From Phoronis australis (taxonomy: Eukaryota > Animalia > Phoronida): a DNA stretch of 64,000 nt. Below, piece after piece: positions 38,401-56,083 of this stretch (position 1 is the first letter of the stretch; each line of letters opens with the position of its first letter). Below the pieces are notes generated by a model. That model made no database searches, was not told the DNA's origin, and saw only the letters and a program-made list of their open reading frames with translations. A program made the position numbers and the translations under genes. The stretch is taken from NCBI GenBank assembly GCA_002633005.1, contig NMRA01000005.1, forward strand, positions 955,001 to 1,019,000, in the 5' to 3' direction.

Positions 38401-41400
38401 GGTTTTGCAGATTTATTGAGGCAACTCTCCATTTTTTAAACGTTACAGAGTATAGATTAGTCAACAAGGTCCGTGTTTTGCGTACCTTCTGTTCTGTTCC
38501 TCGTAGAAAGTATTTTCCGTCAAGAGTTGACATTAAATTTTAGTTTTTCTACAAATTGTTAATAGGTCAGTACAGTAGTATGCTGACTTATGCATAGGGA
38601 TATTGCATCCCTACTTTATAATTCACAAGGTTTTTTGGTCTTATTGCACAGCTGGATTAAGCTCGTGAATGACAATTGTGGGATTTGTTCGTAATAAATT
38701 TTGAAAGACTGGGCATCCCTTAACTTGGGTAATTTTTGCAATTTCTGTAGAAAGAGGCGAAGATTTTCACTGGAGTAATATGAAAGCATTTCTCTTTATC
38801 TCTCTCAGAAGCATTTCCATAGTGTAAGATATACTGCACTCATTCAAAGCCTGTGTTCCCCATCCCCAAATTTACAAATTTTCACTTTTAATTGCCCATT
38901 GCCCCGTTTAATATCCACTCTCAGTTTTTATGATTGAGGCTTATTTGAAAATGTCCTTGACATGAAAGCTTGCCTTGCGCAAATTTTTGCTCCCTAAAAA
39001 TAGCACTACTTGCATCCCTTTGAGTTATGAACAGCCAGAGTTTTGGAAGCACTTTGCCTTATTAAGATGCGGAAATTCTCACGCACTCCTTTCGTGTGAC
39101 TCTTATTAAGCCGTTTTTACACGAGGAACTATTGTCACGGCCCGAGTTGTCACGGCACAAGTTGCACCACTCTCAGTTACGGTGTCAACTTGCTCCGTGT
39201 CAGTCGTGTTCAAACACACACGATCAGCTGTTCTGTGTTCAAAAGAGGTCTTTTGAGAAGCCTCGACTTCTCGGAAGTTAAATTTCTAAATGCCAATGCC
39301 TGGCTTAACCTCCACCACCAAAGTTTTGAGTTCCCCAATTTAAGCACCCTAGGCATTAAGATGGATATGTACAATAATTTTTTGTCACTTAATCTCCAGT
39401 TGTCTTCAAGTGTTACAAAATCACCCAAATGTTTTGTACACTATTTTCCCTGTCTTTAACAATAACAAGTTTATAGTAATTTCATCAGCAGTAGTAGAAA
39501 TAATCTTTGGAACTCTCATCAAACACTGAAACTGATGTCCGTGTCTTGCGGAGTTCAAGTTTTGTGATGATGCAACCAACGCTGAGTGTAATTAATATTA
39601 ACATTTCTGTGGATATCTGAAGTAATGGTAACTAACTGTTAGTGGCAAGAGATATGTGTAATGTGTGAGCACAGTGTTTTCTCTACTGTCCAGTGCATTC
39701 CTTACACTATTGTTGTTATAGAAACATTTTGGCAAGTAGTCAAGACTCCTTCACATTCTTGCATTGTTATCAAACAAACCCATGTGATGGATAGGAGCTA
39801 TATTAATCTTGTTTGTTTGGCTTGGCCTACAGGTTTCTGTTAATAAGTTCAGTGGTGGGGATAGAATTCTGTCAGAGCTCATGAACTGTGTTTGTAAACT
39901 CAATGACTGTGCCAGTGGCCACTGTGCATGGTTGGTGTACAGAGTGTGAACACTCAATTGGTCATTGTTGATATTTCCTGTTTGTTTGGTGATAGTGGTG
40001 GTGTAGTATTGTAGGCCAAAGTTTGTTGTTTGTGATCCTCTGTCACGTCTTTTAAATTCCCTTTTTGGTGGTACATAGGGATTCAATGATAAAAAGTGTT
40101 TTGTCATCTTTCACATCAAGGCCATTTCACACTAAGGTACTGTCACACCAAGGCCCTTTCAAACCTAGGCGTTTTCACACCAATGCCCTTTCACACCAAG
40201 GTCCTTTCACACCAAGGTCCTTTCACACCAAGGTCCTTTCACACCAAGGTCCTTTCACACCAACTATGGCCTCGAAGACGGGACTAAAAGTGAGTGGAAC
40301 TGCACAACCTGAACCGTGTGGAAGGTTTCATATTCGAAACATGTTTTGGCCAATTTTTTGTTTCTACTCACCTTCAGCTCATTTCTTCTAAATGTTACGA
40401 TTGGTTCACTCGTTTTGGGAACGATTTTAGTTTGATAGAACCATCACAATCAATGGTAAATGCGCAGCTGTAGAATTTGTTACATACAAAAAATAACAAT
40501 ATGTGTTTGCGTGAATGGATTGCGGAATGAAAAATGTATTTTTTATGAATATGATTACTGTTTGGTAAAAAGTTGAGCACTTTTCAGTGTAGACAACAAA
40601 ACTGTGTTAATTAACTGTCTGCGTTAAATGTTAATGGCTTTCAGATTTCTGGCAAGGTTGACAGGAATGCTGACCTGCTGTAAGGAACTTAGGCTTGATG
40701 AACTTTTAAATATTTGCTCTGCATTGAAGCTATCTGCTTTCCATGGTTATCTGATGTGGTTATCTGCTGTGGACAAGTTCTGGCTAATCACTTTGATGCC
40801 TGTCAGTTGTGGCTCTGGTCACGTAAACATGAAAGTGAAAATGGCACACCCTGGTTCAGCCATTTTGGTCAGTTGGTTTGTGTTAAAAGTTTTACTGGAA
40901 GCTGCTTGAAGGTCAATTGACTCCTGTGATGAGGAGGCCGGGTGGGATAGGAGAGAATTTTTTGGGTGTTTAACTAGAAAGTATCTGCCTCTACAAAAGG
41001 GATACAGAAAATGCACGTGTAGAATGTATCCTGGAAAAATGTCTCTTATTCCTTTAGCTGTTATTGTTCTCCATTATATTCTGTTCTTCAGTCTGTTTTG
41101 AATTTCAAGAAATGGCAGAACTAAGGTTTTGGTTATACGGTGGGTTTCTATGGTTACTGATTTATTCTGATAAGCCTGATAGTCATCAATGACACTAGTC
41201 CTCCACAATCACTTCTGCCATTGGTCTAAATACTGTGGACACAGAGCCGTCAACTGGTGCCTTGGACACCACAACTCGACCAAGTTACTACAGGAACTAG
41301 TGGCTAGGTTTAGTCACAGTGTGAGTACTATTGCTCTGGGACAACTTGACACGTGACAGCTAACCCCCCCCCCGCAACTTGACCCAGCGTAAGTTATAGT

Positions 41401-44400
41401 TTAGACGTGTTCATGCTGGCCAGACCGAAGTAATTACCACCTGCTCACATTTTCCGTCATATATGTGTGTGCGTACGTGCGTGCGTCTTAATATTTTTTG
41501 CACCACATTTGTCGCGAGAGATGTATCGTGTGTGATGTGCACGCTCTAGGGCAAATTGTGGGGTAACCTATATGTATGGACACGACTCTTGTCTACTTGA
41601 AGCCGTCTCGGGGGTGTTCTTGAACAAACCACGCTCTAGCCATTTTCCATGCCCTTGTGTCGGTTTACATACAAATGAGAGTTCACCAGCTCTAGCGTCT
41701 TTGTGGCATTCTTGCCAATTATCTCGAAAGGTTTATGTTTTCTCCTCTGAGCAGCTGCTGAAGCTGTATGTCTGTGGTCCACTTATTGGAGGGTTGGAGA
41801 ATGCGAGAGACAGGTTTTCTGGATAATTTGACATTTGAACCAGTGGTTGTGTGGTTAATTGCCAGAGATGGACTGCTTAACGTTTTATCGTTTTTCGTGG
41901 ACTTACTAATTGTGCTGAAATCGTGATAGTTCATATAACATCTATTAAAACGACCGTAAGCTGTGTTTCATCAAAGAAGCTTCCTGTTGATTTAGACCAC
42001 TTACTGTAGTTATAAAACGATCTCATCTTGTTTCTAACTCGGATGAGCAACGGTTTGAGAGCTTGGAAAATATTGGCCACAGTTAAACTGTAGTGGTGGA
42101 GATCATGCCTAGCGTGTAACATGGCTCATTGTGGCAAGCCAACTGCTGTAAATCTTAGTCTCAGTTAACTAAGAGCTGTCTAAGCTCACGAACCATTCGA
42201 GCAATAACTGTCCTGTCCAAGTCAAGAAACACTTCCAGTTTGACTTGGGGACAATTTTTGGCCAGTTTCAAAATGGCAATGAGGCGTAAACCATACTTTT
42301 TGTGAAGGAAAGTGGGTAGATAGCCACTTTAAATAATTTTCATCTTATTTAACATTCAAATATAGAATTTACTACTAGCAACAATCATGTCAATTCATAT
42401 GAATGAGAGACATCCTGATCTCTCAGGATGTATATAGCTGCTGTGTGTTGTCTTCCTGTAGTGACCAACTGGGGTTCCTGATGCATGTATGGTTCAATTT
42501 TCCTAGCATCTTTTTACAAAAGAAGCTCAGCTGAAGCCGTGCACACCACAGGAGACAGCTGTTTCCATGTGCATTGAATGACCATGTGGCTTTTTCAATT
42601 ACCATACCTTGAAGTTTATTTTGTCAGCTGCTTAAATCTCTTTTCTGTGTTTTGAGTATGGTACAATGGCAAATATGGTGCCCAAAGTATGCTAAAGAAC
42701 AGATTGATGCTAAAGTTTTACTGCTCACTGTTGTTTTACGGTGCCCGAAGAGCAAATTGGAGAGCTGAAGAGAAAATTGGAGAGCTATATTGTAATTAGG
42801 CCATAGGCTACACTGTCTCTCATCGTTTCTCTTAATGCTTTCTCCGTCTGTTGTGGTTGGACATGAACAGATGTCTGCGAAAGTGTGTCTGTTATGTTAC
42901 AAGTTTTTTGTAATGAGCTGGAATTCTCAACACACCTTTTGTCTGTCAAAACTTACATGTGCAAGGTGAAATGCAATTTAGTTTAATTTATTGGTTGCAG
43001 TTCACTGCGGCTCCCTTCCGTGGATTTTTTCAGATTTTTTTACTCGAGTGGACGCAGTTAATAATGCCATCATTTTTGTGTTCGTGTAATAAATTTTTGA
43101 GATTGCAAAAGAGGACTTGCGTAATACTGTAAAGTTTTGATTTTTCTAGAAAATGAAGGTGTAGCAAGAATTTCATTGAATGTTTCATTTTACTTTCTGT
43201 TTTCGACTTCTTTTGTGTTGTTTGTCTGTTGACTGCCATTAGAATCCACAATTGACTGCATGAAATATCAGTCAATACAATCGTCAGGGTAACTTGACTG
43301 GTAATGGCTTGGGCAATGCGTTTTCCTTTCACAATGCCGCATTTCTATCACGTTTCTTTCAAAAAGGTTATATGGAATTTTCTATTTTGCTGTTGCAAAA
43401 TAAAAGAATTTATAACTAGATACAAAAGGCTGTTTCCACTGCAGCTCTTACAAATTTTAGTGTTGACCACTACTATAATTGAAACCGCCCCAAATTGCTT
43501 TTCAAACATTCCCCTGGTTTCACGATTTCGTTATTTATCCGAAAGCATTCGCCCCGTCTTCGGCCATTTCCATTGCCGCCACCAAGTGTTCCGAGGATTG
43601 TGTTGACTGTAGACTGTGTTAGATTGTTCAGTGATACCTCTTGTATCGTCCACCACCCTTCCCCCCGCTGTGTTTGTTCGTGCATGATTTGTTTTCTATT
43701 TCAGGCGGTTAATCCTGAGGAGTTTGAAGAACAGATTTTGGTATATATGACAATTTTATTGCATTTACTGGATTGAATGACAATCACTTGTAATTCAGTT
43801 TCGTGGCATTGAAACCACATACTGTAGTTTCACTAGTTACTAGTTAATAGTTACTAGTTACTAGTTAGTCTCTTTGTGACTTGGTCATGCATGTACTTAT
43901 AACTAAATTGCATGTTTGCGTTTTGTTAATCAAGTTATTCATAATGAATAATTTTAATGTATTAGTGTCTATTTCATTAAATTTCACTCTGTAGTTTTAA
44001 TACTTAATTGCTGAATTTCAAAATTAGTTTGACTGCGCTGATTTCCAGGAAGTTCATTGTTGTTAGTTCTAATTATTGCTGCTTAAGATACCAAGACTAA
44101 TAATTACCGTAGTTTCTAATCTATATTAAGTTCAGATCTCAGGTCTCTTAGTTGTAGGTCATTAAGTCACTTTTAACACTGAGTTATTTTTTGTAAAGAT
44201 ACTAGATTTTTAAGGAGATGCAGAATTATGTGAGTGACAGTTACATGATTTTCTTTGATGAAACTTTTCATTGGAGGAACAGCTCGGTTTTGTAGTAATC
44301 CATTAATTTTGTCTTGAAATTAAGATTTGCGATAGAATGAGATAATACCATATTTGACCGTCTTCATTGTCGGTGATGCTGATGTCATAGTCTTCAATAT

Positions 44401-47400
44401 TTTAGTGTTCAAATAATTGGCATTTGCCTGTTTAGGAACTTGTTAAATGAAGCCTAGCATTATAAATAAGAATTATTCATCGTCTTACACATCATTTGTC
44501 GCTCACATCATGTGACTGAAAAGATTTCTGTCACGACCAGGGCTCATCAGCTCAGCATCCTGATATTTGAAATCTTGGTCATTTTTGTTGTCAGTCTCTT
44601 AAAAGTACATTGAAATTATAGTAGTAAAATCTATTCTTCTTTACTTCCAAAAATTTATCAGAAATCTTTGGTTTCTCAGCTGAGTATGAACTTCAAGCTT
44701 TCATTAGCCTGACTCAGCAGTCAAAGGTTCCTGGTAATTTTTGTTTTCTTTAGTTGTAAAGAATAATGGCTCTTACTATGGATAATGTTTTGGACTAATC
44801 TTGAGTCTTGAGTCGGTTGGTTGTTTCAGGCTGACAGCACTGACCTCATCCAGGCTGAAGTCACAGACAGGCTTGACTCTGCTCCATGGAGTGAAGATTT
44901 CTCATCAGTAGAGTTTTCTCTTCCCGTTGGACCTGTGTTCAATTTCGTTGATGGTAAGAATGTCTCTGGGAAATGACCAGTCGCTGCTGTCAACCTTTCT
45001 TCTCCACATGAATTTCAATTTTCCTATTATGCAGTTGTGTTTGCCACGGGGCTTATAGTAAAACAATTCCCAAGAAAACTAATGTCCCAACAGCTGGTTT
45101 GCACTGTGGTCGTAAATGCTGTTCTTCCCCCCGGCAGGGTTTGTGCTGCACCACATTTCTTGCATTCTCTGGACTGTGCTACACTAACCCTCTTGTTTAC
45201 TGAAAAGATTTCCTCAGTGAAGGCTCCCCACAATTTCATCGATTGTTTTCATTACTCCTTTGCTATCTTCCATCCAGTAGAGCCAACCTTGCTCTAAGGC
45301 AAGTTCAGCCTGACCTAAGTGGATCATTTCAGTTGAAAACTTGGCAGCTTTGTTGGTAACACCCCCTGCTGCTTTGTTTAAGGAAAAAATCCTTGATTTC
45401 GAATCGGAGTTGTGAATTTTCTCCGTTTACTCACAAATTTCTGTGTCCGCAATCAAAGAGATTGTCCAGAGTTGACCAATCTTTCGTTTACTTTTTGTAA
45501 TTCTCAGCTGTTTTGTTCAAGAAAAGATAGTCATGCCCTTGAACCAAAAGATGTTTTTTTTAGCCATTCACAAGTCACCTTGTTTTAATTTGAGTTGTCT
45601 TCCTTGCAGCTGAGGTAACCATGCCCTCCGGCAAGAAGAGCTACCCTAAAATAGAGGACAACAAAGATGGTACCGTCACCGTCAAGTATCAACCCACCGA
45701 GATGGGACTGCATGAACTGGCTGTCAAATACAACAATGAGCCAATTGAAGGTGAGCCTGATGTCACGTGACTGCTCTTGAGCCAATCAAATTTCTTCTGT
45801 CGCATGACTTGTAAGTTGCCATCTACAGTACGGTCTTCAGGCTTTGGATAATAGCTCCTTTGTCATATGACTTATTTGATTGAATTTGTTAATTTTAAAA
45901 ATTAAAATTGTCTTGTTAACTCTTAGCGAACAAAACTTGGGAAAGAGCACTTTAATTTACAAACTTGACTACCATTAATGGTAAGCTTGTGTATTCGGTA
46001 GTCCTTTCTCAGAAAGCTGTGTCGCATCATAGCACAATTTCTGGGAAAGTGTAACCTTACAACATTGTATTCCAGGTATCTCTCTCGTCTAACTAAGAAA
46101 GAAGTCTGCAAAACGAGTCTGCAAAACGAGTCTGCTCGTAATACTCATGACATTAAATCGGTTCTGTTTCACTAATTGGTTTAATTGAGTTGCCTATTAT
46201 GTTTTTTCCTCTCCACTCCTGGCATTTGACAGCACTGTTTTTCTTGACGAGACATGACAGTACAGCTCTCTATGGCAGCTGTGGTGCACTGTGTTTGTCA
46301 GATAACCCATGGCCGTCTTGGGAGTGTGTAAACATGGCCTAAGAAATGTAACCCGGTGAGGTTACATTCTCTTGCTGTGGTTAAGTGCTGCTTGATGAGT
46401 GTCTCTGGCATTCCTTTGCTGTTGCATTTTCATTCAGTGAGAGATGTCAAGATAGTGGGTCCAACTACAACTGGTATCATTAGTTTTCGCTCTCAAAATA
46501 ATCTGGCAGTTTAAGTACATCCTTTTATCTATTATGGTGGTTCACACTAAGTGGAATATACTGCAATTTGGGGCACTCTGGAAAAGTCTTCGAGTGCTAG
46601 CTACTAAAGTACTCAAATGGCTCTGGATGTGTTAGGAGTTCAAATCTAAAATTGGCAAATATAGATATTAGTTCGTAATATATGCACAAGTTAATGTACT
46701 TGTCAACATCAGTGACATTGTGAGATTCAACAGCAATAATTTTGCACATTCCATCCTGGAAAATCCTGGGCCTAAAGGGCCCTGTGCCCGGTTGCATGAA
46801 ACAGTCCCAAATAGGGACTCGGCTAAGTTCCCTAAATCTTCTGCCTATCTGTGTCCTTGTTTACTCTCAAATGTAATCTTTTTATATCATGTCATCTTTA
46901 TTATGACCTTCTCATCGACTTATGACAGTTTCTAATAGTATAACTGATAACTGAGCCCTAAATTCAATGAAAATGAATAGGTACTTATAGTCCTTAAGTT
47001 AGGATACCTACTTATTTTCAATAATGTTGCGAATTCAATGTTGAGCTCACTCTCGATTTGTATCAAAGCCAAAAGTTGACTACGTAATAAATCTAAAATA
47101 GCATAAAAAGGACAATCGATGTTTTCACAAGTCTACAAATACGCAGTAGATTTAGGGAACTTAGTTGAGTCCCTATTTGGGACTGTTTCATGCAACCGGG
47201 CACAGGAGTCGTAACAAAATTTTTTCGCAGTGAACATCTTTCTTGCATTGTTACATTGTTTCACAAGGTTTGAGCTAACAACTCCGTCTAGCAACACAAC
47301 TGCTTTACAAATTGCGATTTTCCATTACACTAAACTGTTTGGTTATGATAGAAGATTAGGGAAAATTAACGGGTTTGAAACAACTGTTTTATTGTTGAAC

Positions 47401-50400
47401 CACTTGCACAGTTCTGAGTGAGTTCATCAACTATGGAGACGGAGATGTGTTGTACTGTTACGCTGGTTGGTGGCTCAGACTTGAATGTATTGGCACAGCA
47501 TCACATTATTATCATCTGTGCTCTCTTGTACAGAATGTTAAGTAGGTAGATAGTTCAGTATTATTGTAATGTAGTATTGGCTAGGAAGAAAAGTTAGGAC
47601 ATCTGCGTGCGAGGAAGGGTTTTTCGTGCAAAAGGAATTGCTGTACTCGCCAAAAATAATGGCCCATTTACCAACATCGTGGATAAGTACTTGTAGGTTT
47701 TGTAAGCTCACGTTATTACACATCATTCCACTTACTCTGATGGCAAATTCTTCTTTCACTCAGTCCTCATCTCATGATGGGGGGTCTGCCTGTAGTGTGT
47801 TGTTATGGCGACAGGGATGTTCGTTATGAATGATTCGTTTATACTGTATCATTTACAGCCGTTAGCTTGCAGTCGTGAGTTTTTTCATCTTCTGTTATTC
47901 ACTGGAATTTGATTACTGTGTTTGTGACCTATTCTTGTGTGCCCAAATTTTTAATTCTTTTAGGGGCAGTAAATAATATAAAACAATCTTCAGAGTCCTA
48001 TGTCTGTTTGTTATGTAAATTGTCTCTATTGGTGTATGGAAGCCATCTGTCACCATGGTGTTGACTTTTGGCTTCTAGGTCGCAATGAAATTGATGACTT
48101 TCTTCATTTATTTTTGGCTACAGGAAGTCCATTCAAATTCTTTGTGGACTCAATCAAGAGTGGTTACGTGACTGCCTATGGACCCGGCCTGAGCTTTGGC
48201 GTCAGTGGTGAACCCGCCAACTTCACGGTTGTTACCAAGGATGCTGGGGCAGGTGAGCCCAGGGGTGGGGAAGTGAACGAATATTTTATATTCATACCTT
48301 GCAGAATATGTGTGTTGATACGTAGTTTTATAAATTTATCTCTGTGATTTGAATTTAAATATTTATAGTGTAAAATGTGACTATGGATGTTTGTTGAACG
48401 TTTCGGTATGATTTCTCTAAATTTTATATGAAATGCTATGAGTCATGCATGCTCAATTGAAACTATATTGTGAATGCTTGTGGTGATTAGAATATTAGGA
48501 TTGTTCTTGAGCACTGCTTACACTGTCTGTCTACATTTTTATAACGTCTTCGATCTGCATTTTATTTTTAACATCTTCAAGCTACATTTTAGTTGTAGTC
48601 TATCAAGCACAAGTTCCACTGCTTATAAAACAGGTCCGCAATTTGCAAAATTATTTGTAGTGAGGCCGGGGGTCTGTGTCATGCAAAGTCACTTGGGTCC
48701 TAAGTCAGAAATTTTGTATTACGCTCCACACAAGTGAGCAAAAGTGAAAAGTCTCTGAGAATGTTGTCATGAAATCTGTGACATTCATGATACATATAAT
48801 TCTTAGCACATTAGTTTGATAGTGTTATTATTTATTGATATTATTTCTTTGCTAGACAATTGTTTTTGTTTATAGAAACTTGTTTGGCTGTCAGCTGAGT
48901 CAGCGACCAACCCATCCGCATTGTATATGATTGTAGCTATTCTACTACATTGTTTGTGTTTTACCCAGGGTCCTCAGCCCCCGGATGTAGGTCTCAAGGG
49001 TGTCACAAAAGTGGCGTAGGCTGGCACTAGTTGGTTGTGGGGGTTTGATTTCCCACAGAGCTTTCATATTAGCATTGACCAATAGAGTGGATTTTCCATA
49101 CCTGTCAGCAAGTAGGTCCATGGCTTCTATGTAACTGGCGTTCGTCAGTGGAAGGCCAGCGATGGCATTGGCGGCGTCGCCGGCGATGTGGGCACGCAGG
49201 TACTGTAACTTTTGGACTGGTTCTAGTCCAGAATCGGNGCAGGGTGATAATGCTGGCATCAAGCATTTCTAACTGAGTTCTCTTGGCGTGAATCTGGTTG
49301 AGAACTTTCTCCAGGTCGGGAACAGGGTCCGATGGAGTCGCAGTCATGAAGAGGGTGGCACGATCGATAAGTTTCGTCATGAGTCCTCTGTGCGCACCGC
49401 GAACTTTCCTCTGTTTGGCCAGTTGTGGTTCCATCTTCGCGCAGGTCACGGCACCAAACAATGTAGTAGAATAGCTACAATCATATACAATGCGGATGGG
49501 TTGGTCGCTGACTCAGCTGACAGCCAAACAAGTTTCTATAAACAAAAACAATTGTCTAGCAAAGAAATAATATCAATAAGTAATAACACTATCAAACTAA
49601 TGTGCTAAGAATTATATGTATCATGAATGTCACAGATTTCATGACAAATGTACTGCCAGCTGCTAGTTACTGAGATAATTTCCATGCTCTATTTTGAGAC
49701 TGTGATACACTTCTAAATTACTTTGGGAAGCATAACACCAATTACAATTTTCGTTCTTAACCTTAAGTCACTTTGATTATGAAACGGACACTTGTTCTAC
49801 TCCTACGCCAGACTAAGTAACTGACGTAGGACGGTGGCAAAGAGTGGCTTTTAACAGCAAAAATTAATAATGTTCGAAAAGATTTTGTTCATTAGCCTTA
49901 CGATGACTTTCCAATGTCTAAATTACAGCATATTTACTGCTATCCAATGTTGACAGTTTTTTAGTCCAGCAGTGGCACAAGACTCCATACCACCTGCAGA
50001 CCTATCTTAGTGGCAGTGTGACAATCGTTATAGTCTATTATGATTTTTTGCACAGCTCTGAGTGTTTACTATAGATGATGGTGCTTTAGTTTCCAGCTCT
50101 GATAACTCTGATAATTCTGGTAAATAGAAAACGCTTATGGCACTGTCCGCTTTTCTCTGTTGGTCAAATTCTTAAACTGTTGAGGTGTTACAGTTCGGCT
50201 TTTGCAGTCCACGGAATTAGCATGCTTTTGAAATTCAATTTTAGCCCAGTGCACATCTGGGAGAAAGACTGGAGAGCTGGTTATATGGGAGTGGGAATGA
50301 TGATTATTGAGCACTTGAAATTCACTAGGTGGCGCTACTGAGACCACAATGTTGATTCTACCAAGTATGAATGTATGTAGTCATGTAGTCACAATGACAC

Positions 50401-53400
50401 AGTTTCACCCATATTGGTGGACTGCTTTCTGTACTCAATTAGCGCCACCTAGTGAGTATTTAATCTCATTGCCCACTGGTTGATGAGGAAGCAAGTTCAC
50501 TTAGTAAACCCTTTGAATGGGACTTATATCGTACAAAAGGTTTTCTATGGGTCCCCTCGTTCCTGTCAACATCTGGTTCATCCTTGATAGTGGACCAAAT
50601 CTAAGTCGTTGTGGTTTCAACTTTGCAAATCAAACGTTATTTTCACTGCTTTTAAATTGCTTTAAAACCTGTCTTCCCTTGGTAGTGGTGGTGGTTGTTC
50701 CATTCAGAATGGGTGTGTGCAGCTCTGGGTGTACTGTGAGTGTGAGCTTATCTTGATGAGGGCTAAGCTATTTATGAGCAGGTTATGTTTTGGTTTTCGC
50801 TTCAGCTATCTGTGAAAAAATTATGGTTTTGTTGCCTTGACAACCAACGTCGTTTAAATGTTCAATTTAAATTTTATTGCATTTTCATGTTGATATGATG
50901 AGTTACTCTCTTCTAATCTGGTAAGATTTGCTTGGATAGGTTGTGTTTTTGTTCTGCTGTTGCTTTTTTGGGAACTCCTAAAAAGATGCAGCACTACTGC
51001 ATTATAAACAATTGTGGTTAAAGTTGACAAAGTGATTGACGGCACTAGTGTTTTCATGCCTCATACTATCTTGTGCTGTGAATTACTGGGAGCCAGTGCG
51101 AACTGAACTGAACTTGATGTGATTGCATTAATTGTCTATGATTGTCTCATTACCCATGCTTACTGTGATGTCTAGCCAAGATTATTAATGCTGTGCATGA
51201 TGTAGGCAACTTAACTCACCAAGCAATTTCACTTATCGGTAACTTTAGCATGCTCAACTCACTCGAGCCGGTAGATTTAGCAGATTTTTGTTATATCAGA
51301 CCATAGTCTGCAGCACATCAGCAGAGCTTTGCATGACCAAGTTGGTGCCCATTTCCTGATGATTTATCCATTCTTTTTTTAAGAAAGCCTGTTCTTAATT
51401 TCATTTATCTATTTGTTAGTAATTCGGAGCATGTTTCGACTCGATCTCAAGGTCACCTTGTAGATCAACATTTACCAAACTGCACATAGATTCTGCTTTG
51501 CATGAGAAAACTCGGCTCAGCGCACAATTCTGTTCGGTTCTTGTCTCTAATTTGTGAAAAAAAATCTCAATTTCTTCGATTTTATTTCATCAGGAGGTTT
51601 ATCCCTAGCCGTTGAGGGACCTTCAAAGGCAGAGATCACGTGTATAGACAATAAGGACGGCTCGTGTTCCGTCTCGTACTTACCCACTTCCCCTGGCGAG
51701 TACAAGGTACTCGTCAAGTGGGACAACAAACACATCGCCGGCTCACCTTTCTTGGCTAAGATCACAGGTAAACGTGGTAGATGCAACTACCAGTCCTGCC
51801 AATAGGTGGCCTCGGTGAGTTGGTGCACTGTCTACTGTGGACGTATTGCTGGTGGTGGTTTCACATTCAGCACACAGTGGAGGAGTTGCAAAGTGATGTC
51901 ATTGTATTAAATCTTGAATTCTTGTGAATTTTGTGCTGAAGTAATGAAATTCATGCCATCTGCTTGATTTTATATTTTAATATGACATTTTTTTTAATTA
52001 CCACTCACCTGTTTCTACAAAAGTTTAAAATTCTCAAGCCTTCTCAGAACGCTCTTGTGACCATACCACCGCAATGCCCCCTGTTGGCGGCGTCTAGCTT
52101 TCGTGTGAGTCCACCACAAGGACTTGGCAGTGACTCGTTAAAACTCTTAACTCGACAGCATGTTGCATGTGTTGACACTAGGTGGCCTCGCACTAGCCGT
52201 GGAGGGTCCGTCCAAGTGTGAGATCCTCTGTCAAGATAACCAGGATGGCACGTGCAGTATCACGTACTTGCCAATGGCGCCCGGCGAGTACAAAGTCGTC
52301 GTCAAGTACAACGACCAACACATCGCCGGCTCCCCCTTCTTCCCCAAGATTGTCGGTGAGTATACAGCACTCGTGTGCATTATCCGCTCACCCGCGACCT
52401 CTCACATGTCCTGAAGCCTTTTGAACAAACATAGACATGCGCGTTTCCCCGACCCTGTCTTGACAGAGCTCAGGAATGCCATAACAGTTCATTTTTGCTT
52501 ATGTTTCATAAGATAGTCAAAAGGCATGCAGTTAAATGTAGTCCCTAGTCTTTAAACCCATCATTCCTCTGCTACTATCTGGGTGGGAGAACACAATCTA
52601 ATTTGACTCGGGCCTTATTTTACAATTTACAAGCTAATCAACCATGCTGTTTAATTTGAATTTTTTGAAACATGAAAAAAATGATTTATCGGATTTGTAG
52701 CAATTTCTTTTGAAGAAAAAGTACTTGACTGTCACTTTCCCTGCTCCATCTTCTAGTGTTGCACCCTTAAGTAGGCCTCGTTTTTATTGAGAAGTTGAAA
52801 TTAAAAGATAGTACATGTGGCATTGTGTGGAAAGGAAAAGTGTGGATGAAATGCACCGTGCAAGTTAGGTTCACTCAGACGTTGACCACCTCGCATACCT
52901 TATAGTGTGGTGACTCTTCTTTGAACAACACTAGCTGCATCCTCTTATTTTCATATTTCAAGGCAAATCTTTTAAAATTACTTCCTTTCTGCTGCAAAGC
53001 CTTGATGTTTTTTGTTAGTTCTTACAGATATGCAAAGTAGTTTCTTTATTTCTTGGAAATTTTAAATACAATTGGCAGTACTGACTTTCTTCCTTTGTGA
53101 TACACTTGGTAACTGCATTGTCTCTTCAATCCTGAGAAAGGAACGTGGGTTGTTAAACCTTGAACACACTTCACTGAACCAAAAGATACGAGTAGCGTAG
53201 CCTATATGGGCACAAGACCTTGGCCTTCAAGATGTGTTTGCATGCTCCTACCTATGCTAATGTATAGCAAGAACTTAACGACAATGCTATTTAAACATAA
53301 ACAAAATGCAGTTGTACTCATTGACAACTTGAAAATGTGAAAACAAAAATTTATGCAAATACGTGACCCTTGCACTTATGACGTGCTTCCTAGGCTTACG

Positions 53401-56083
53401 TAGCGCGCGTCATGCAGCGTTATTCCCGGCACCATGACACCATACTTACTAGCCACCCATTAGTGATTTACGTCGGATCATTTTTGCCATAAAATCGTTC
53501 TTAAAAACATTTGGCTATTTTCAAAGTACTTGGTATTCACATCGTCATTATATGTTATTTCTAACTAATTTGGCCAAGCAATCACAGAGACAAGGAATTA
53601 GCCTGCAAGTTCCACTTTAAAACCGGAGTCACACGCTTAGTAATGCGAGTCACCGGGTTATGAACTGTAGTCCCTTGAATCCCAGGTGTGTGACACAAGG
53701 TTTTTGGGTCCGTATCTCGTCCTTGACTGTTGGTGGAGTGTATCCAAGGTTTGCGACTGCTGTTCATTTGTCTAGCCTTGATGGTAATACGCAATAATCA
53801 ATGTCTTATAACAAAAATCCGTAAAAGTCCGACCCCATCTAATCCCTTCTTCTTTGTGTGCCATCTCCTTATATGTGAAGACCTGCCTAATTACATGGAA
53901 GGTATGTTCTTTTCTTAAATCAGTGTAGCTATGGACATTATGCTTCAGAACTCATTTTTGTTTTGGGAATATAGCGTTGTCGTTGTTGTGGTCATTTAGT
54001 TTTTCAGATCTTTTTTGTTTTCTTGTTTATTGGTGGTGGCATAGGTTAAAGTTATATCTCTGTGTATTTAATTTAAAACTAAAAAAAATGTAAAAGCAGT
54101 CTATTGCCTAGTTTACAAAGGCGTGTGCATAAGGGTCTCTGTTCCTGTTTTGTGATCTTCCATTTGCAATACAAAGATTTTTAAAAACTGTCCTGCACCA
54201 AAGTAGTACTGAAGCCGTGTCCATGGGTTTATAGAACTGATGAAGTTTACTGAGTGGTGAACTAAGGGTTGGACACAACATGCTGCCACACTCGTGAACA
54301 TAAGTTCCTTAATTTTATTGCTCCAACGGGCCCAGTACACTCCATTGCCTGTGAGCCGTGTGTATGAGTGAGGAACCATGTTTGTGAGTGCAGCAGTCAA
54401 GTTGTTTCCATCCCTAGTTAACATGAAGTGTGTGTAACATTTTAGAGTTGTCTATTGGTCATTTTCATTTTTCTATTTACTGCATGGTTTTTGTACATTG
54501 TCAGATTTTAAACTGAATTTGTTTAATCATCCAGTAAAACCTAGTAATTATCTTTGATTTCTGCTGTGTGTGCAATATTCTCGACTTGTAGTACTTGTAG
54601 CAATGTTTCAGGAGTTAACATGGGGTATACTTGCATTACGGTCCCAGTGTTATCCTGTTTCTTCTTGTGACTGACATGTGCCTATCCTGTCATCACTTAA
54701 CAGTGTATCACTAATAGTTTGTAAATTCCAAGTCATTCACCAACAGAGGGAGTGATGAAATTTTGAACCATTCAAGAGAGAATGTTAAGTTGTTGTCCTG
54801 TGTTGACTGATTTACACAATTCAAGGCTGCTTTCCTTTCAAACAAATTAGATAAATGTCAGATAAGAAATTTAGCATTAACTTAGTTTATTCAAGAGCAG
54901 GCCTTTGTGAAAGCTGTATTTATTTTTAAACTTAATGTGACAAGATGTCGAGGCAAAAATCATAACCAATCATAACCGCTTGGAAATCAATGATTTAATG
55001 GTGCATTCAGACTGTTTTTATCACTATCACTATCACTATCACTGGAGGTTTTTTGTTTTGTACAGCATTAAGTCCAGTAACATAAAGTTTTCTTAGTGAC
55101 ATTTTGGGCTGATTCGTAATGATCCTTAAAATGTTTTTAGAAATTACAATGAATAGTATTCTTTTTTAAATTTCTTGTAACTTTGCTTGCACTTCTTGCA
55201 CAACTTGTAACAAACACTTTTTGTCCGAGTGGAATTTGTGGTCAACACGTTGCGGTATTAATGCTTGTGATTCCCGCTGCAGGAGGCGGCCGACGTCGCA
55301 CCTCGTTCAACCGAGGCAGTGAATTCTCGCTGAAGGTCTCGGAGACGGACATCAGTGACCTAACAGCCACTATCAAGGCCCCATCTGGCAAGGAGGAACC
55401 GTGCATACTCAAGAAACTAGCCAACGGTCACTTGGGTAAGTGGACTGACATGACATGAGGTGACTACTGCTATCCTTCTTTTATGCGGTTACCTCTGTCT
55501 AGGCTAGAGATAAGTCAGTGGTAGTAATATTTTCAAATCGGTCTATTGTTGGAGCTGGCTACGTCAACTGAGCCATTATGTTTTGGACACTACAAGAGAT
55601 TGACTGTGAAACGAAGTGACATTTAAGAATTTTCGCAAACATTTTGGAATCTGGTCAGCACACCACCTGTTGGTCACATCATGTGACGCAGCCATGTTGA
55701 CCAGTCTTACAAATTTTTGCTATATGTATTTCCACGCCAGTTTAAGATTTGCATTTCATATTTGCAGATTTTATGAAAATTTTGAAAAGTGAAGAGAAAT
55801 GCATGATTACTTAGGTGATTATTTTGTATTTCTTGTATGTATGCATTGCACGTGTCTTATTTGTGCATATCACCTGCAGGAATATCGTTCACTCCACACG
55901 AGACCGGGGAACACCTGGTGAATGTGTATAGGAGCGGACAGCACATCGCCAACAGTCCGTTCAAGATTCACGTGTCGCGCAACGAGATTGGCAATGCATC
56001 CAAGGTCAAGGTCTACGGAAAAGGCCTAGAGGAAGGCACGGCGAACCAACGCAATGAGTTCACTGTAGACACCAAGGAGGCAG
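140..56083 (+). CDS. FLNA: Filamin gene (partial, multi-exon; CH2 end through first half of Ig19-equivalent repeat); open at both ends
   Basis: Exons translate to filamin motifs ([39 protein letters not shown]) in the order of human FLNA domains; GT-AG sites with consistent phases. Confidence 0.98.
373..540. repeat. Minisatellite, ~42-bp unit x4
   Basis: gtggatgagactttttctgcttggcctttctcagtccaaga repeated; produces the spurious ORFs 44..574 and 373..555. Confidence 0.9.
2733..3225. mobile_element. MITE, CAGGGCTTGGAAT TIR family (hAT-like), long subtype
   Basis: 13-bp TIR cagggcttggaat/attccaagccctg; aaatgt on both flanks; shares ends with three other copies in the window. Confidence 0.85.
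3799..3946 (+). CDS. FLNA: Filamin exon, CH2 end and start of Ig1 (LIKPEEM...RVRAYGP)
   Basis: ttgcag|CTT...CCAG|gtatgt; phase 0 to 1. Confidence 0.96.
5004..5058. repeat. 18-bp unit x3 (tattcaggttaagtgttg)
   Basis: Visible direct repeat ~90 nt upstream of exon 3a. Confidence 0.8.
5146..5264 (+). CDS. FLNA: Filamin Ig1 mutually exclusive exon 3a ([40 protein letters not shown])
   Basis: ccctcttag|GT...CCG|gttagt; 119 nt; phase 1 to 0. Confidence 0.9.
6344..6462 (+). CDS. FLNA: Filamin Ig1 mutually exclusive exon 3b ([40 protein letters not shown])
   Basis: gctaat branch-like site, gacag|GC...CCT|gtaagt; 119 nt; phase 1 to 0; not in the ORF track. Confidence 0.92.
7857..8014. repeat. Perfect 39-bp tandem repeat x4
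   Basis: aacaacatacagtataagggtgtttgcggtcatgtagac x4. Confidence 0.95.
8312..8430 (+). CDS. FLNA: Filamin Ig1 mutually exclusive exon 3c ([40 protein letters not shown])
   Basis: tttcactcag|GT...AGC|gtgagt; 119 nt; phase 1 to 0. Confidence 0.92.
8922..9300. mobile_element. Dispersed ~380-bp repeat, copy 1 (probable non-autonomous DNA transposon ending ...tccactttaa)
   Basis: Colinear similarity with 53238-53620 (ctatgctaatgtatagca; gtgacc.ttgcac; agtgatttac; ttccactttaa). Bounds approximate. Confidence 0.7.
9518..9595 (+). CDS. FLNA: Filamin Ig1 alternative exon 4a ([26 protein letters not shown])
   Basis: tttatag|TGC...AGG|gtaaga; 78 nt; phase 0-0; matches the filamin Ig1 NND.N.T.S motif. 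Confidence 0.93.
10296..10361 (+). CDS. FLNA: Filamin Ig1 alternative exon 4b ([22 protein letters not shown])
   Basis: cattgcag|AAC...ACG|gtaggt; 66 nt; phase 0-0; homologous to 4a (Y.C.Y.PTM.G.Y). Confidence 0.8.
11359..11500. repeat. Degenerate (CAA)n/(CCA)n microsatellite
   Basis: caacaacaac and accaccacc runs. Confidence 0.8.
11515..11846. mobile_element. MITE (CAGGGCTTGGAAT family, ~250-bp subtype, ends at 11764) followed by two 41-bp tandem copies of its 3' end plus flank
   Basis: gggcttggaattttcc...cattccaagccctg; internal similarity to the copies at 17369 and 28122. Confidence 0.85.
12605..12767 (+). CDS. FLNA: Filamin exon, Ig1 end and Ig2 start ([17 protein letters not shown]...YFEVFAK)
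   Basis: ctctag|GTG...AAAG|gttagt; phase 0 to 1. Confidence 0.95.
13283..13483 (+). CDS. FLNA: Filamin exon, Ig2 (DAGNGVLEV...SPYGVNVSP)
   Basis: gcacag|AT...CCTC|gtaagt; phase 1-1. Confidence 0.95.
13877..14151 (+). CDS. FLNA: Filamin exon, Ig3 ([12 protein letters not shown]...AKSPFK)
   Basis: ttccag|CT...AAG|gtattg; phase 1 to 0. Confidence 0.95.
15315..15435 (+). CDS. FLNA: Filamin exon, Ig3 end and Ig4 start ([21 protein letters not shown]...TGAL)
   Basis: acacag|GTT...CTCG|gtgagt; phase 0 to 1. Confidence 0.95.
16294..16487 (+). CDS. FLNA: Filamin exon, Ig4 ([14 protein letters not shown]...YNPSM)
   Basis: ctacag|GC...ATG|gtgaga; phase 1 to 0. Confidence 0.95.
17095..17352 (+). CDS. 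FLNA: Filamin exon, Ig5 ([12 protein letters not shown]...NSPFR)
   Basis: tgccag|GTC...AGA|gtgagt; phase 0-0. Confidence 0.95.
17369..17616. mobile_element. MITE (CAGGGCTTGGAAT family, ~250-bp subtype), 16 nt after an exon donor
   Basis: cagggtgtggaatt...attcgaagccctg; flanks tgtgtt/tgtgta. Confidence 0.85.
18175..18295 (+). CDS. FLNA: Filamin exon, Ig6 start ([18 protein letters not shown]...KKAGP)
   Basis: cgctag|GTG...CCCG|gtaagt; phase 0 to 1. Confidence 0.95.
18614..18838 (+). CDS. FLNA: Filamin exon, Ig6/7-like (GDVAIAMTD...VIVDGLEE)
   Basis: ccatag|GT...GAGA|gtaagg; phase 1-1. Confidence 0.93.
18881..19046. repeat. 16/20-bp minisatellite (tttgaacacgtacatg[tgcg]), ~9.5 copies
   Basis: Visible perfect units. 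Confidence 0.95.
19734..20360 (+). CDS. FLNA: Filamin exon: Ig8-like repeat, Pro/Glu linker, Ig9-like repeat and start of Ig11-like repeat
   Basis: ctctag|AC ATT TTT GTT GGT...CGGG|gtaatg; 627 nt; phase 1-1. Confidence 0.95.
21464..21539. repeat. Short hairpin with 21-bp arms and a third internal partial copy
   Basis: gagtatgcgggtgcatactcc / ggagtatgcacctgcatgctc. Confidence 0.7.
22335..22511 (+). CDS. FLNA: Filamin exon, Ig11-like ([10 protein letters not shown]...YTPYEQ)
   Basis: ttacag|GA...CAGG|gtaact; phase 1-1. Confidence 0.95.
23183..23282. mobile_element. ~100-bp hairpin/MITE-like element, copy 1
   Basis: TIR tagtcacttaca/tgtaagtgacta with inner agaaccagttt/aaactggttct; related copy at 31904-31989. 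Confidence 0.7.
23371..23541 (+). CDS. FLNA: Filamin exon, Ig11 end and Ig12 start ([11 protein letters not shown]...STRGA)
   Basis: tgttag|GA...GCAG|gtaagg; phase 1-1. Confidence 0.95.
23541..23880. repeat. Degenerate ~24-bp tandem repeat (consensus ~AAATCTAGGCAAGGAACCTT), about 13 units
   Basis: Recurrent aaggaacctt and aaatctagg words fill most of the intron. Confidence 0.75.
23967..24119 (+). CDS. FLNA: Filamin exon, Ig12 ([19 protein letters not shown]...DQPIP)
   Basis: gtctag|GC...CCAG|gtgagc; phase 1-1. Confidence 0.95.
24244..24392. repeat. 33-37-bp minisatellite x4
   Basis: ttagtatacagagacactaactgttatcaattc(attc). Confidence 0.9.
24721..24891 (+). CDS. FLNA: Filamin exon, Ig12 end and Ig13 start ([11 protein letters not shown]...TFTDEL)
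   Basis: acccag|GC...CTAG|gtgagt; phase 1-1. Confidence 0.95.
25317..25440 (+). CDS. FLNA: Filamin exon, Ig13 ([10 protein letters not shown]...GENIPN)
   Basis: atccag|GT...AACAG|gtgctg; phase 1 to 2. Confidence 0.92.
25716..26439 (+). CDS. FLNA: Alternative filamin exon: SPFRVLVV plus ~230-aa Thr/Glu/Gln/Val-rich low-complexity segment (cassette to 26435, or terminal at TAA 26437-26439)
   Basis: cttctctttctag|T CCA TTC CGT GTC is in frame with ORF 25792..26439; donor AT|gtaagg gives 720 nt, phase 2-2. Confidence 0.8.
27882..28035 (+). CDS. FLNA: Filamin exon, Ig13 end and Ig14 start ([16 protein letters not shown]...[10 protein letters not shown]...VSIV)
   Basis: ttacag|C CCC...GTG|gtatgt; phase 2 to 0. 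Confidence 0.94.
28122..28374. mobile_element. MITE (CAGGGCTTGGAAT family, ~250-bp subtype)
   Basis: cagggcttggaat...attccaagccctg; no clear TSD. Confidence 0.85.
29277..29466 (+). CDS. FLNA: Filamin exon, Ig14 ([17 protein letters not shown]...[10 protein letters not shown])
   Basis: tttcag|GCA...ACAG|gtacgt; phase 0 to 1. Confidence 0.95.
30056..30215 (+). CDS. FLNA: Filamin exon, Ig15 ([15 protein letters not shown]...DGTFTI)
   Basis: ttgtag|AG...ATTAA|gtaggt; phase 1 to 2. Confidence 0.94.
31002..31086 (+). CDS. FLNA: Filamin exon, Ig15 end ([29 protein letters not shown])
   Basis: ctgttag|G TAC...CAG|gtagga; phase 2 to 0. Confidence 0.93.
31487..31712. mobile_element. Fold-back MITE-like element with ~95-bp imperfect arms
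   Basis: gcaaacattt...aagtctgagaagatttctgcc / ggcagaaatcttttcagactt...aaatgtttgc; shorter relative at ~55635-55720. Confidence 0.8.
31904..31989. mobile_element. ~90-bp hairpin/MITE-like element, copy 2
   Basis: Similar to 23183-23282. Confidence 0.65.
33215..33625. repeat. Degenerate ~39-bp minisatellite (gatggtatactggtgagaattgttcctgcaatgtaatga)
   Basis: Recurrent ggtatactggtgag; produces spurious ORF 33195..33536. Confidence 0.85.
37618..37919 (+). promoter_or_regulatory. Candidate internal TATA/Inr promoter with non-coding first exon, or recursive splice site at 37919/37920
   Basis: TATATAAG 37618-37625; TCAATT 37648-37653 (~30 nt later); no ATG in 37650-37919; ttttctcgcag|gtaaga. Confidence 0.4.
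40112..40263. repeat. 17-bp minisatellite (tttcacaccaaggtcc-type unit)
   Basis: Visible tandem units. Confidence 0.9.
43705..43740 (+). CDS. FLNA: Filamin hinge-1 mini-exon ([12 protein letters not shown])
   Basis: Strong acceptor tttgttttctatttcag|GCG...TTG|gtatat; 36 nt; phase 0-0; continues GTCVQQ. Confidence 0.7.
44830..44953 (+). CDS. FLNA: Filamin exon, hinge 1 and Ig16 start ([11 protein letters not shown]...[15 protein letters not shown])
   Basis: tttcag|GCT...GATG|gtaaga; phase 0 to 1; bridges the phases to the MPSG exon. Confidence 0.82.
45610..45750 (+). CDS. FLNA: Filamin exon, Ig16 ([37 protein letters not shown]...)
   Basis: ttgcag|CT...GAAG|gtgagc; phase 1-1. Confidence 0.96.
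46781..47206. mobile_element. MITE with ~70-bp TIRs and an internal palindrome
   Basis: cctgtgcccggttgcatgaaacagtcccaaatagggactc / gagtccctatttgggactgtttcatgcaaccgggcacagg (40 bp perfect, extends imperfectly). Confidence 0.9.
48124..48252 (+). CDS. FLNA: Filamin exon, Ig16 end and Ig17 start ([23 protein letters not shown]...KDAGA)
   Basis: ctacag|GA...GCAG|gtgagc; phase 1-1. Confidence 0.96.
48765..49646 (-). mobile_element. BEL/Pao LTR-retrotransposon derivative with inverted LTRs, tRNA-His PBS and gag fragment
   Basis: 192-bp inverted repeats (48765-48956 / 49455-49646, one mismatch seen); TG...CA ends; AATGT on both flanks; minus-strand TGGTGCCGTGAC at 49456-49445. Confidence 0.9.
48957..49434 (-). 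pseudogene. gag: Truncated BEL/Pao gag (DUF1759-like: [35 protein letters not shown])
   Basis: ATG at 49434 just after the PBS; frame break at the N at 49238; ORFs 49105..49461 and 48945..49262. Confidence 0.85.
50322..50455. repeat. Hairpin element with perfect 16-bp arms resembling a CTCF motif
   Basis: tcactaggtggcgcta / tagcgccacctagtga, with weaker inner complementarity. Confidence 0.75.
51594..51767 (+). CDS. FLNA: Filamin Ig17 mutually exclusive exon A ([25 protein letters not shown]...FLAKIT)
   Basis: catcag|GA...ACAG|gtaaac; 174 nt; phase 1-1. Confidence 0.95.
52182..52355 (+). CDS. FLNA: Filamin Ig17 mutually exclusive exon B ([25 protein letters not shown]...FFPKIV)
   Basis: cactag|GT...GTCG|gtgagt; 174 nt; phase 1-1; branch-like cttaac at ~52146-52151. 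Confidence 0.95.
53238..53620. mobile_element. Dispersed ~380-bp repeat, copy 2
   Basis: Colinear with 8922-9300. Confidence 0.7.
55283..55435 (+). CDS. FLNA: Filamin exon, Ig18 ([25 protein letters not shown]...LANGHL)
   Basis: ctgcag|GA...TTGG|gtaagt; phase 1-1; CAGGAG NAGNAG acceptor. Confidence 0.95.
55880..56083 (+). CDS. FLNA: Filamin exon, Ig18 end and Ig19 start ([12 protein letters not shown]...VDTKEA)
   Basis: ctgcag|GA...GCAG|gtgggt; phase 1-1; next exon not found before 64000. Confidence 0.95.

What the first reader, a model, noticed from the sequence alone, without database searches (positions are those of the whole stretch)
51251..52151. RNA switch enforcing Ig17 exon exclusivity: intron-closing stem versus exon-A-looping helix
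Seen: both exons preserve frame and the intron is 414 nt, so neither decay nor intron size explains exclusion. Almost all of 51792-51865 pairs in nested order with 52056-52135: agtcctgccaa/ttggcagtgact, ggtggcctcg/tgagtccacc, gagttggtgc/gcgtctagctt and attgctggtggtggtttcaca/tgtgaccataccaccgcaat, with many G-U pairs. This leaves only ~40 effective nt between the A donor (51768) and the B branch-like A (~52150). A rival segment upstream of A (tgctcaactcactcgagcc, 51251-51269) pairs with the same 5' arm (51808-51827), which would loop A out and open the stem. Known: structure-assisted steric hindrance and competing helices are described for insect Dscam1. I know of no such report for filamin. This is the strongest candidate for an undescribed system in the window.
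Basis: partly seen in the sequence, partly recalled or inferred. Interest (0 to 1): 0.88.

Follow-up and report, generated by a model that had tools for sequence, protein, structure and literature searches.

The report
Decoy-switched RNA stem between filamin exons
An invertebrate filamin gene uses one or the other of two old duplicated exons; the intron between them has unusually complementary ends and carries a copy of the second exon's start, which likely form a two-way RNA fold that would keep the two exons from being joined.

Summary
RNA reads show that two old duplicated 174-nt filamin Ig17 exons (A 51594-51767, B 52182-52355) are used one at a time. No A-to-B joint was listed, although it would be in frame. 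The intron's end-to-end stem is far beyond chance: -71.7 kcal/mol, 0 of 1000 shuffles, and the best of the gene's 30 other introns gives -46.0. The strand 52103-52115 can pair either with this copy (stem closed, A donor about 39 nt from B's likely branch point) or with B's real acceptor (B masked). The two folds differ by 0.1-4.3 kcal/mol across four allele sets. Best reading (about 0.5, inferred): either fold blocks A-B joining. No close relative was available, so conservation is untested, and predicted folds shift with context. This is a variant of known RNA-structure exclusion (Dscam exon 17, ATE1). The scan noted such stems in other genes of other genomes; none of the 4 notes shown was on filamin.

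The parts
48124..48252 (+). Upstream constitutive exon U (end of Ig16, first half of Ig17)
   Evidence: RNA joints U>A and U>B; boundaries
51594..51767 (+). Exon A, 174 nt, second half of filamin Ig17
52182..52355 (+). Exon B, 174 nt, duplicate of A (68% amino-acid identity; 7 of 17 four-fold sites identical)
55283..55435 (+). Downstream constitutive exon D (Ig18 start)
   Evidence: RNA joints A>D and B>D
51792..51865 (+). 5' arm of the intron-closing stem
   Evidence: duplex -71.7 kcal/mol with 52056-52135
52056..52135 (+). 3' arm of the intron-closing stem
   Evidence: allelic changes at 52070 and 52091 and a 9-nt insertion after 52063 keep pairing
51803..51820 (+). Decoy 'mini-B': 12/12 copy of exon B's acceptor junction (52179-52190) overlapping a 9/9 copy of exon B's donor junction (52353-52361); no use of it as a splice site was listed
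   Evidence: 2 matches, 0.08 expected; 3 matches, 0.25 expected
52103..52115 (+). Switch strand: predicted to pair either with the decoy (51805-51814) or with exon B's acceptor (52181-52193, 12 bp)
52080..52090 (+). Second partner for 51796-51806 (11 bp), predicted in the B-masked fold
   Evidence: P 0.98; best partner region of the arm among 128 kb scanned
52146..52151 (+). Branch-point-like motif of exon B (A at 52150), followed by a predicted hairpin 52152-52175 in place of a pyrimidine tract
   Evidence: motif match only; hairpin P about 0.9; pyrimidine fraction 0.50, lowest of 7 acceptors
51251..51269 (+).
51213..51241 (+).
52375..52392 (+). Possible downstream partner of the 5' arm that would loop out exon B; good duplex energy but P 0.00 in folds

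Best explanation
Exons A and B are an old tandem pair used one at a time, and the intron between them likely acts as a two-state RNA switch in which both states would block A-to-B joining. Shown: either/or splicing, the complementarity, and the 12-nt copy of B's acceptor. Inferred state 1 (stem closed): strand 52103-52115 pairs with the decoy copy in the 5' arm, B's acceptor is free, but A's donor sits only about 39 unpaired nt from B's branch point, too close for the two to be spliced together; the upstream exon can still join A or B. Inferred state 2 (B masked): the same strand pairs across B's acceptor while the 5' arm re-pairs with 52080-52090, so only A is available. The stem can form first during transcription because it is complete at 52135, before B's acceptor is made. 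The balance of the two states, with proteins, would set the A:B ratio. The swapped exon includes the C and D strand region that binds partner peptides in human filamin domain 17, so the isoforms likely differ in binding.
For: Joints U>A 23/39/57, U>B 20/14/26, A>D 16/24/58, B>D 34/43/24 in three RNA runs; no A>B or U>D row among those shown, 9 rows hidden. No joint at all inside 51150-52500 in X6, X7, X1, X4 (listing needs 3 reads). Frame does not explain it; no branch motif lies within 50 nt of A's donor (first at 51860); both introns are GT-AG. Stem: z -4.71, 0 of 1000 shuffles, better than all 5092 fixed-geometry pairs, than 1994 GC-rich pairs elsewhere (best -62.6), and than 30 other introns (mean -34.7, best -46.0). 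Decoy identity 12/12 although A and B are near saturation at silent sites. Ensemble energies of the stem versus B-masked states over 51768-52200 at 37 C: -131.8/-135.5 (window), -134.0/-133.9, -130.4/-134.6, -132.4/-132.0 (three other allele sets). All 3 substitutions seen in the arms keep pairing. Steric threshold of about 50 nt: PMC7969005, PMC5740500 (passages).
Against: No cross-species covariation: 0 of 80 metagenome loci showed a second Ig17 copy, and no genome is held. Folds depend strongly on context: with exons free to pair, the outer stem is at P 0.00 for the window allele, being replaced by pairings with exon A's end or upstream segments. The B-acceptor helix alone is modest (14 of 363 GC-matched controls as good) and is replaced by another exon-B pairing when all of B is included (P 0.07 or less). 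The 3 of 3 pairing-neutral alleles are weak evidence, since 67 of 116 possible transitions keep pairing. The arms are not depleted of variants (3 substitutions and one 9-nt insertion in about 255 nt, against 4 substitutions in 444 nt upstream), and one allele breaks the 12/12 decoy identity. The branch point is unmapped. Runs X6 and X7, which carry the insertion, give A at least as often as B from exon U, so alleles do not obviously set the ratio.
Confidence: 0.5

Rival explanations
1. Exclusion is enforced by RNA-binding proteins and B's weak acceptor; the complementarity is a by-product (relic of local inverted and direct duplication, or GC-rich protein-binding sites) or only tunes the ratio.
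For: B's acceptor has the lowest pyrimidine content of 7 examined. Folds are unstable to context. Most human clusters are not explained by distance, frame or spliceosome type (PMC5740500, passages), and Drosophila Rdl exon 3 was assigned to proteins after structure was excluded (PMC13762713, passages). The minus strand also pairs above chance (z -3.56), as an inverted-repeat relic would.
Against: The stem is an extreme outlier among the gene's introns and ends right beside the donor and the branch motif. The region is single-copy in a DNA run (1 contig laid), so it is not a repeat family. A neutral relic as old as the exon pair should have decayed (7 of 17 four-fold sites identical), though a recent relic is not excluded.
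Confidence: 0.28
2. One reading: the stem blocks A-B joining, and an upstream segment (51251-51269, or its neighbour 51213-51241) captures the 5' arm, loops exon A out and so selects B.
For: In folds starting at 51200 the arm pairs upstream with high probability, and with exons unpaired the two non-window haplotypes split about 0.2-0.5 stem versus 0.5-0.8 upstream pairing. None of the variants listed falls in these segments (low depth). The layout resembles serpent's upstream pairing (PMC4691838, sections 3 and 5).
Against: Borderline against chance (4 of 200 shuffles; 18 equal sites in 128 kb; rank 14 on the plus strand). The arm is G/U-rich and pairs with many segments. Which upstream partner wins changes with allele and fold boundary.
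Confidence: 0.14
3. Bidirectional hub: the 5' arm pairs upstream of A (A looped out) or 20-37 nt downstream of B (52375-52392, B looped out), as in serpent or ATE1.
For: The downstream duplex (-29.4) is third best on the plus strand of 64 kb for the 26-nt hub and second among local duplexes.
Against: P 0.00 in all folds that include it; rank 56 with a longer query; found after the fact.
Confidence: 0.08

Closest known systems
Insect Dscam1 exon 17.1/17.2 (Yue et al. 2013, RNA Biol 10:1822; not held, seen only as a title and a one-sentence citation in PMC7969005; details recalled)
   Same: Two-exon cluster in which RNA structure is combined with steric hindrance between the first exon's donor and the second exon's branch point.
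   Different: PMC7969005 describes it as structure plus distant branch points; here the likely branch point is ordinary (31 nt from the acceptor) and the distance would be shortened by a stem of about 58 bp. Here nothing is tested by mutation or covariation.
Human ATE1 exons 7a/7b, R1R3 versus R3R4 (PMC7797038; passages and section 14 read)
   Same: One intronic strand between the two exons has two similar partners, one at the second exon's acceptor, which it would mask.
   Different: In ATE1 the other partner is the region just upstream of the first exon. Here it is a copy of B's acceptor junction 36 nt downstream of A's donor; A's acceptor has no good local partner (-11.2). ATE1's elements are conserved and proven by compensatory mutation.
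Drosophila serpent exon 4.1/4.2 bidirectional pairing (PMC4691838; abstract, sections 3 and 5 read)
   Same: Candidate upstream and downstream pairings around a duplicated exon pair can be drawn here too.
   Different: Serpent uses two separate conserved pairs of elements; here the looping helices are borderline or unsupported, and the strong signal lies inside the intervening intron.
Arm-duplication origin of competing structures (Ivanov and Pervouchine, PMC6071210; first fifth read)
   Same: A duplicated arm gives two partners for one strand, as the 12-nt copy does here.
   Different: The duplicated piece here is a splice junction itself, fused to a donor-like copy.
Distant-branch-point exclusion, e.g. 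vertebrate OGDH 4a/4b (PMC7969005; passages)
   Same: Same steric principle (about 50 nt threshold).
   Different: No branch motif within 50 nt of A's donor and 18 AG dinucleotides in the intron before the acceptor AG.

Membership tests
Tandem-duplicated mutually exclusive exons | Homologous adjacent exons of equal length and phase | tested here: met
   174 nt each, same phase, 68% amino-acid identity
Tandem-duplicated mutually exclusive exons | Each included, not together and not both skipped | tested here: met
   Four expected joints in 3 of 3 raw RNA runs; no A>B joint in X6 and X7 at a 3-read threshold. U>D not among shown rows, 9 rows hidden.
Frame/NMD-enforced exclusion | Double inclusion shifts the frame | tested here: not met
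   U-A-B-D is open
Linear steric hindrance (distant branch point) | Branch point under about 50 nt from the upstream donor, with an AG-free zone | tested here: not met
   First branch-like motif 92 nt from the donor; many AGs; motif-based, no lariat data
Structure-assisted steric hindrance (Dscam exon 17 type) | Stem across the intervening intron, beyond chance, bringing donor and branch point under the threshold | tested here: met
   39 nt effective distance; by prediction only
Structure-assisted steric hindrance (Dscam exon 17 type) | Conservation with compensatory changes across species | tested here: inconclusive
   0 of 80 loci carried the duplicated exon; within-species alleles keep pairing but 3 of 3 is not significant
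Structure-assisted steric hindrance (Dscam exon 17 type) | Loss of exclusivity on disruption and rescue by compensation | not testable with these tools
   Needs minigenes
ATE1-type competing pairings | Central strand complementary to the acceptor region of the second exon | tested here: inconclusive
   12-bp helix, P 0.99 in one context, 14 of 363 controls as good, lost in longer folds
ATE1-type competing pairings | The same strand complementary to the acceptor region of the first exon | tested here: not met
   No such duplex among the 40 best local duplexes; the second partner is an intronic copy of B's acceptor
Serpent-type bidirectional pairing | Significant upstream and downstream pairings that loop out each exon | tested here: inconclusive
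   Upstream 4 of 200 shuffles; downstream good energy but P 0.00 in folds
Known structured RNA or repeat element | Match to an Rfam family or multi-copy presence | tested here: not met
   3 Rfam matches, all far below gathering score and none over the 5' arm; one contig laid in DNA run X1

The most novel reading that the evidence does not exclude
The intron carries a purpose-kept molecular decoy: a miniature copy of exon B's own splice junctions that titrates an anti-acceptor RNA strand. Capturing the strand unmasks B and in the same move zips the intron shut against A-B joining, so exclusivity is built into both conformers of one RNA switch that swaps the ligand-binding groove of filamin domain 17.
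Probability: 0.25. Interest if true: 0.7.

Novelty: new variant of a known kind. Interest (0 to 1): 0.45.

Why it matters
How pairs of in-frame duplicated exons with ordinary-length introns stay mutually exclusive is unexplained for most clusters (PMC5740500). This locus offers a compact 414-nt test case with a very strong stem and a splice-junction copy that predicts specific, opposite outcomes for simple mutations. It also shows either/or exons for filamin's domain-17 peptide-binding region, which two literature searches (listings only) did not bring up. The mechanism class is known, and the evidence for function is predictive only.

Tried and rejected
No own genome is held. Metagenome scan: 80 loci kept of 181 relatives; none showed a second Ig17 copy within the fetched flanks (other hits were Ig19 or earlier repeats), and many flanks are short or are transcripts, so no covariation test was possible. 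A search for relatives' translated exon-B flanks returned 1 protein, covering only the exon part. The organism could not be placed: its filamin fell outside the supported mollusc, arthropod and flatworm groups and the weaker annelid and chordate groups in a 31-row tree, and the first exon of the query was read in the wrong frame there. No RNA holder was listed by index; raw runs of the same species label were used instead. A-to-I editing as a sign of double-stranded RNA: no A>G change listed inside the stem, but depth was 11 or less, so uninformative. Use of the decoy donor at 51815 or of a 9-nt microexon: no loose end or joint listed. Rfam: nothing near threshold. Per-helix z-scores were chosen after the fact and are not used as tests. 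The Dscam exon 17 paper and a 2018 review were not held; a full-text search for exon 17.1 with steric and stem found 0 papers; a search for decoy splice site with mutually exclusive exons, base pairing and RNA structure found 1 unrelated listing. Subscription papers and supplements were not seen and may describe similar cases.

Full report
Setting. The window holds most of one large filamin gene on the plus strand, about 32 exons from the actin-binding end to about Ig19. The animal is an invertebrate that could not be placed; best identities over Ig16-19 are about 70%. The finding lies between two copies of the exon for the second half of Ig repeat 17: A (51594-51767) and B (52182-52355). Exon A matches human filamin A, B and C domain 17, and the two translations are 68% identical. 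Only 7 of 17 four-fold sites are identical, so the duplication is old. None of 80 metagenome loci from other animals showed a second copy, which suggests a lineage-limited event, with the caveat of short flanks.

Exclusion is real. In three raw RNA runs, of which about a fifth each was read, the joints were U>A 23/39/57, U>B 20/14/26, A>D 16/24/58 and B>D 34/43/24; a fourth run has separate A and B contigs. No A>B or U>D row was shown, but 9 rows were hidden. Laid on 51150-52500 alone, runs X6, X7, X1 and X4 gave no joint at all, and the reads leaving A went to D; the listing needs 3 reads, so rare double inclusion is not excluded. Frame cannot explain it, both introns are GT-AG, and no branch motif lies within 50 nt of A's donor.

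The stem is beyond chance. The duplex of 51790-51870 with 52050-52140 is -71.7 kcal/mol; shuffles give -47.1 +/- 5.2, 0 of 1000 as good. It beats all 5092 fixed-geometry window pairs, 1994 GC-rich pairs elsewhere (best -62.6), and the ends of the gene's 30 other introns, with approximate boundaries and the same optimisation (mean -34.7, best -46.0; those ends are less GC-rich). It has 58 pairs, 49 Watson-Crick. The whole-intron z is only -1.79 because the middle is AT-rich. Closed, it leaves 39 unpaired nt between A's donor and the likely branch A at 52150, under the roughly 50-nt threshold cited in PMC7969005 and PMC5740500 (passages read); the threshold in this animal is unknown.

It scores -26.9, 4 of 200 shuffles match it, and 18 sites in 128 kb do as well; with a longer query it ranks 14th on the plus strand.

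Positions 51803-51814 are an exact copy of B's acceptor junction 52179-52190 (2 matches in the window, 0.08 expected; 16 of 18 over the longer stretch), and 51812-51820 equals B's donor junction 52353-52361 (3 matches, 0.25 expected). The 5' arm thus carries a miniature exon B with its interior missing. No use of it in splicing was listed. The strand 52103-52115 pairs with this copy in the stem, but forms 12 bp with the real acceptor. Adding 19 nt of exon B to the fold flips the window allele to that state (P 0.99), with 51796-51806 moving to 52080-52090. Over 51768-52200 the two states differ by 3.7 kcal/mol in the window allele, 4.2 with the insertion alone, and 0.1-0.4 in two natural haplotypes. 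With exons held unpaired and the fold starting at 51700, the full stem has P about 0.3 in the window allele and 0.87-1.00 in those two haplotypes. Against this: the acceptor helix alone is matched by 14 of 363 controls, and with all of exon B present another pairing (52123-52130 with 52228-52235) replaces it, the acceptor still being mostly paired (accessibility 0.15-0.17).

Alleles. One search shows three substitutions in the arms (51814, 52070, 52091) and a 9-nt insertion after 52063. All keep the stem (changes -0.7, +2.2, -3.9 and +1.8 kcal/mol; -2.1 for the combined haplotype). This is compatible but weak, because 67 of 116 possible transitions, and 5 of 8 CpG transitions, would also keep pairing. 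The arms are not poorer in variants than the flanks.

Mechanism. I commit, at about 0.5, to a two-state intron in which the closed stem blocks A-B joining by distance and the open state blocks it by masking B's acceptor. Either/or splicing, the complementarity and the junction copy are shown; the folds in vivo, the branch point and every causal step are inferred.

Comparison. It would work like Dscam exon 17 (paper not held; title and one citing sentence seen, details recalled) in one state and like ATE1 R3R4 (PMC7797038, passages and section 14) in the other. It is not an ATE1-type member in the strict sense, since the second partner is not A's acceptor region. A duplicated arm as the origin fits PMC6071210 (first fifth read). 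Other papers seen: PMC4691838 (abstract, sections 3 and 5); passages of PMC8042237, PMC11802352, PMC12962786, PMC6027157 and PMC13762713. Human domain 17 binds peptides in the groove between strands C and D (PMC5484675, passages); that this exon starts at strand C is recalled, and A and B differ at several positions there. Searches for filamin with mutually exclusive exons and for decoy splice sites with RNA pairing listed nothing matching, judged from listings only. The scan's own notes hold similar exon-pair stems in four other genes and no look-alike of this stretch.

Verdict. A real exon pair and a real, unusually strong stem, with an unnoticed junction copy that gives a better switch model than the one proposed. 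New variant of a known kind, untested by conservation or experiment; interest 0.45.

Noticed in passing
window 53881-53901: A 21-nt in-frame microexon between exon B and exon D, seen in one contig of run X4 joined to B's end and D's start; frame stays open. It adds 7 residues to the Ig17-Ig18 linker.
   Followed up: partly
window 50119 and 50735: Two extra donors inside the U-A intron splice to exon B in run X6 (6 and 3 reads) and were not listed joined to A (Fisher p 0.003 against U's 24:22). They may be alternative first exons or cassette exons (a 45-nt version would be in frame, a 64-nt one not) and partly explain why more reads leave B than enter it from U.
   Followed up: partly
window 51739-52356, run X4: Run X4, guessed to be DNA, holds spliced-junction contigs as well as genomic ones, with B-side depths of 240-390 against 26 for A>D, hinting at a sample in which B dominates; contig depth is a poor measure.
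   Followed up: no
window 52063: The 9-nt insertion allele is common (X1, 3 of 3 reads in X6, 3 of 4 in X7), so the window carries what may be the minority allele.
   Followed up: yes
window 25693-26436: A long open stretch rich in T, Q, E and V (248 codons stop to stop) lies among the Ig-repeat exons and looks like a low-complexity insert exon; not checked with reads.
   Followed up: no
window 31086-45610: The longest intron (about 13.7 kb) precedes a short exon-like piece at about 44832-44955; by analogy (recalled) with short C-terminal filamin isoforms of other animals it could hold an internal start.
   Followed up: no
window 53163-53716 and 49008-49838: Reads pile up on both strands with many loose ends, as expected for dispersed repeats inside the introns.
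   Followed up: no
window 51734-51757: The end of exon A can pair with the 5' arm and enclose A's donor in a loop (P 0.15-0.94 when exons are free to pair); a further possible state, not tested against chance.
   Followed up: partly
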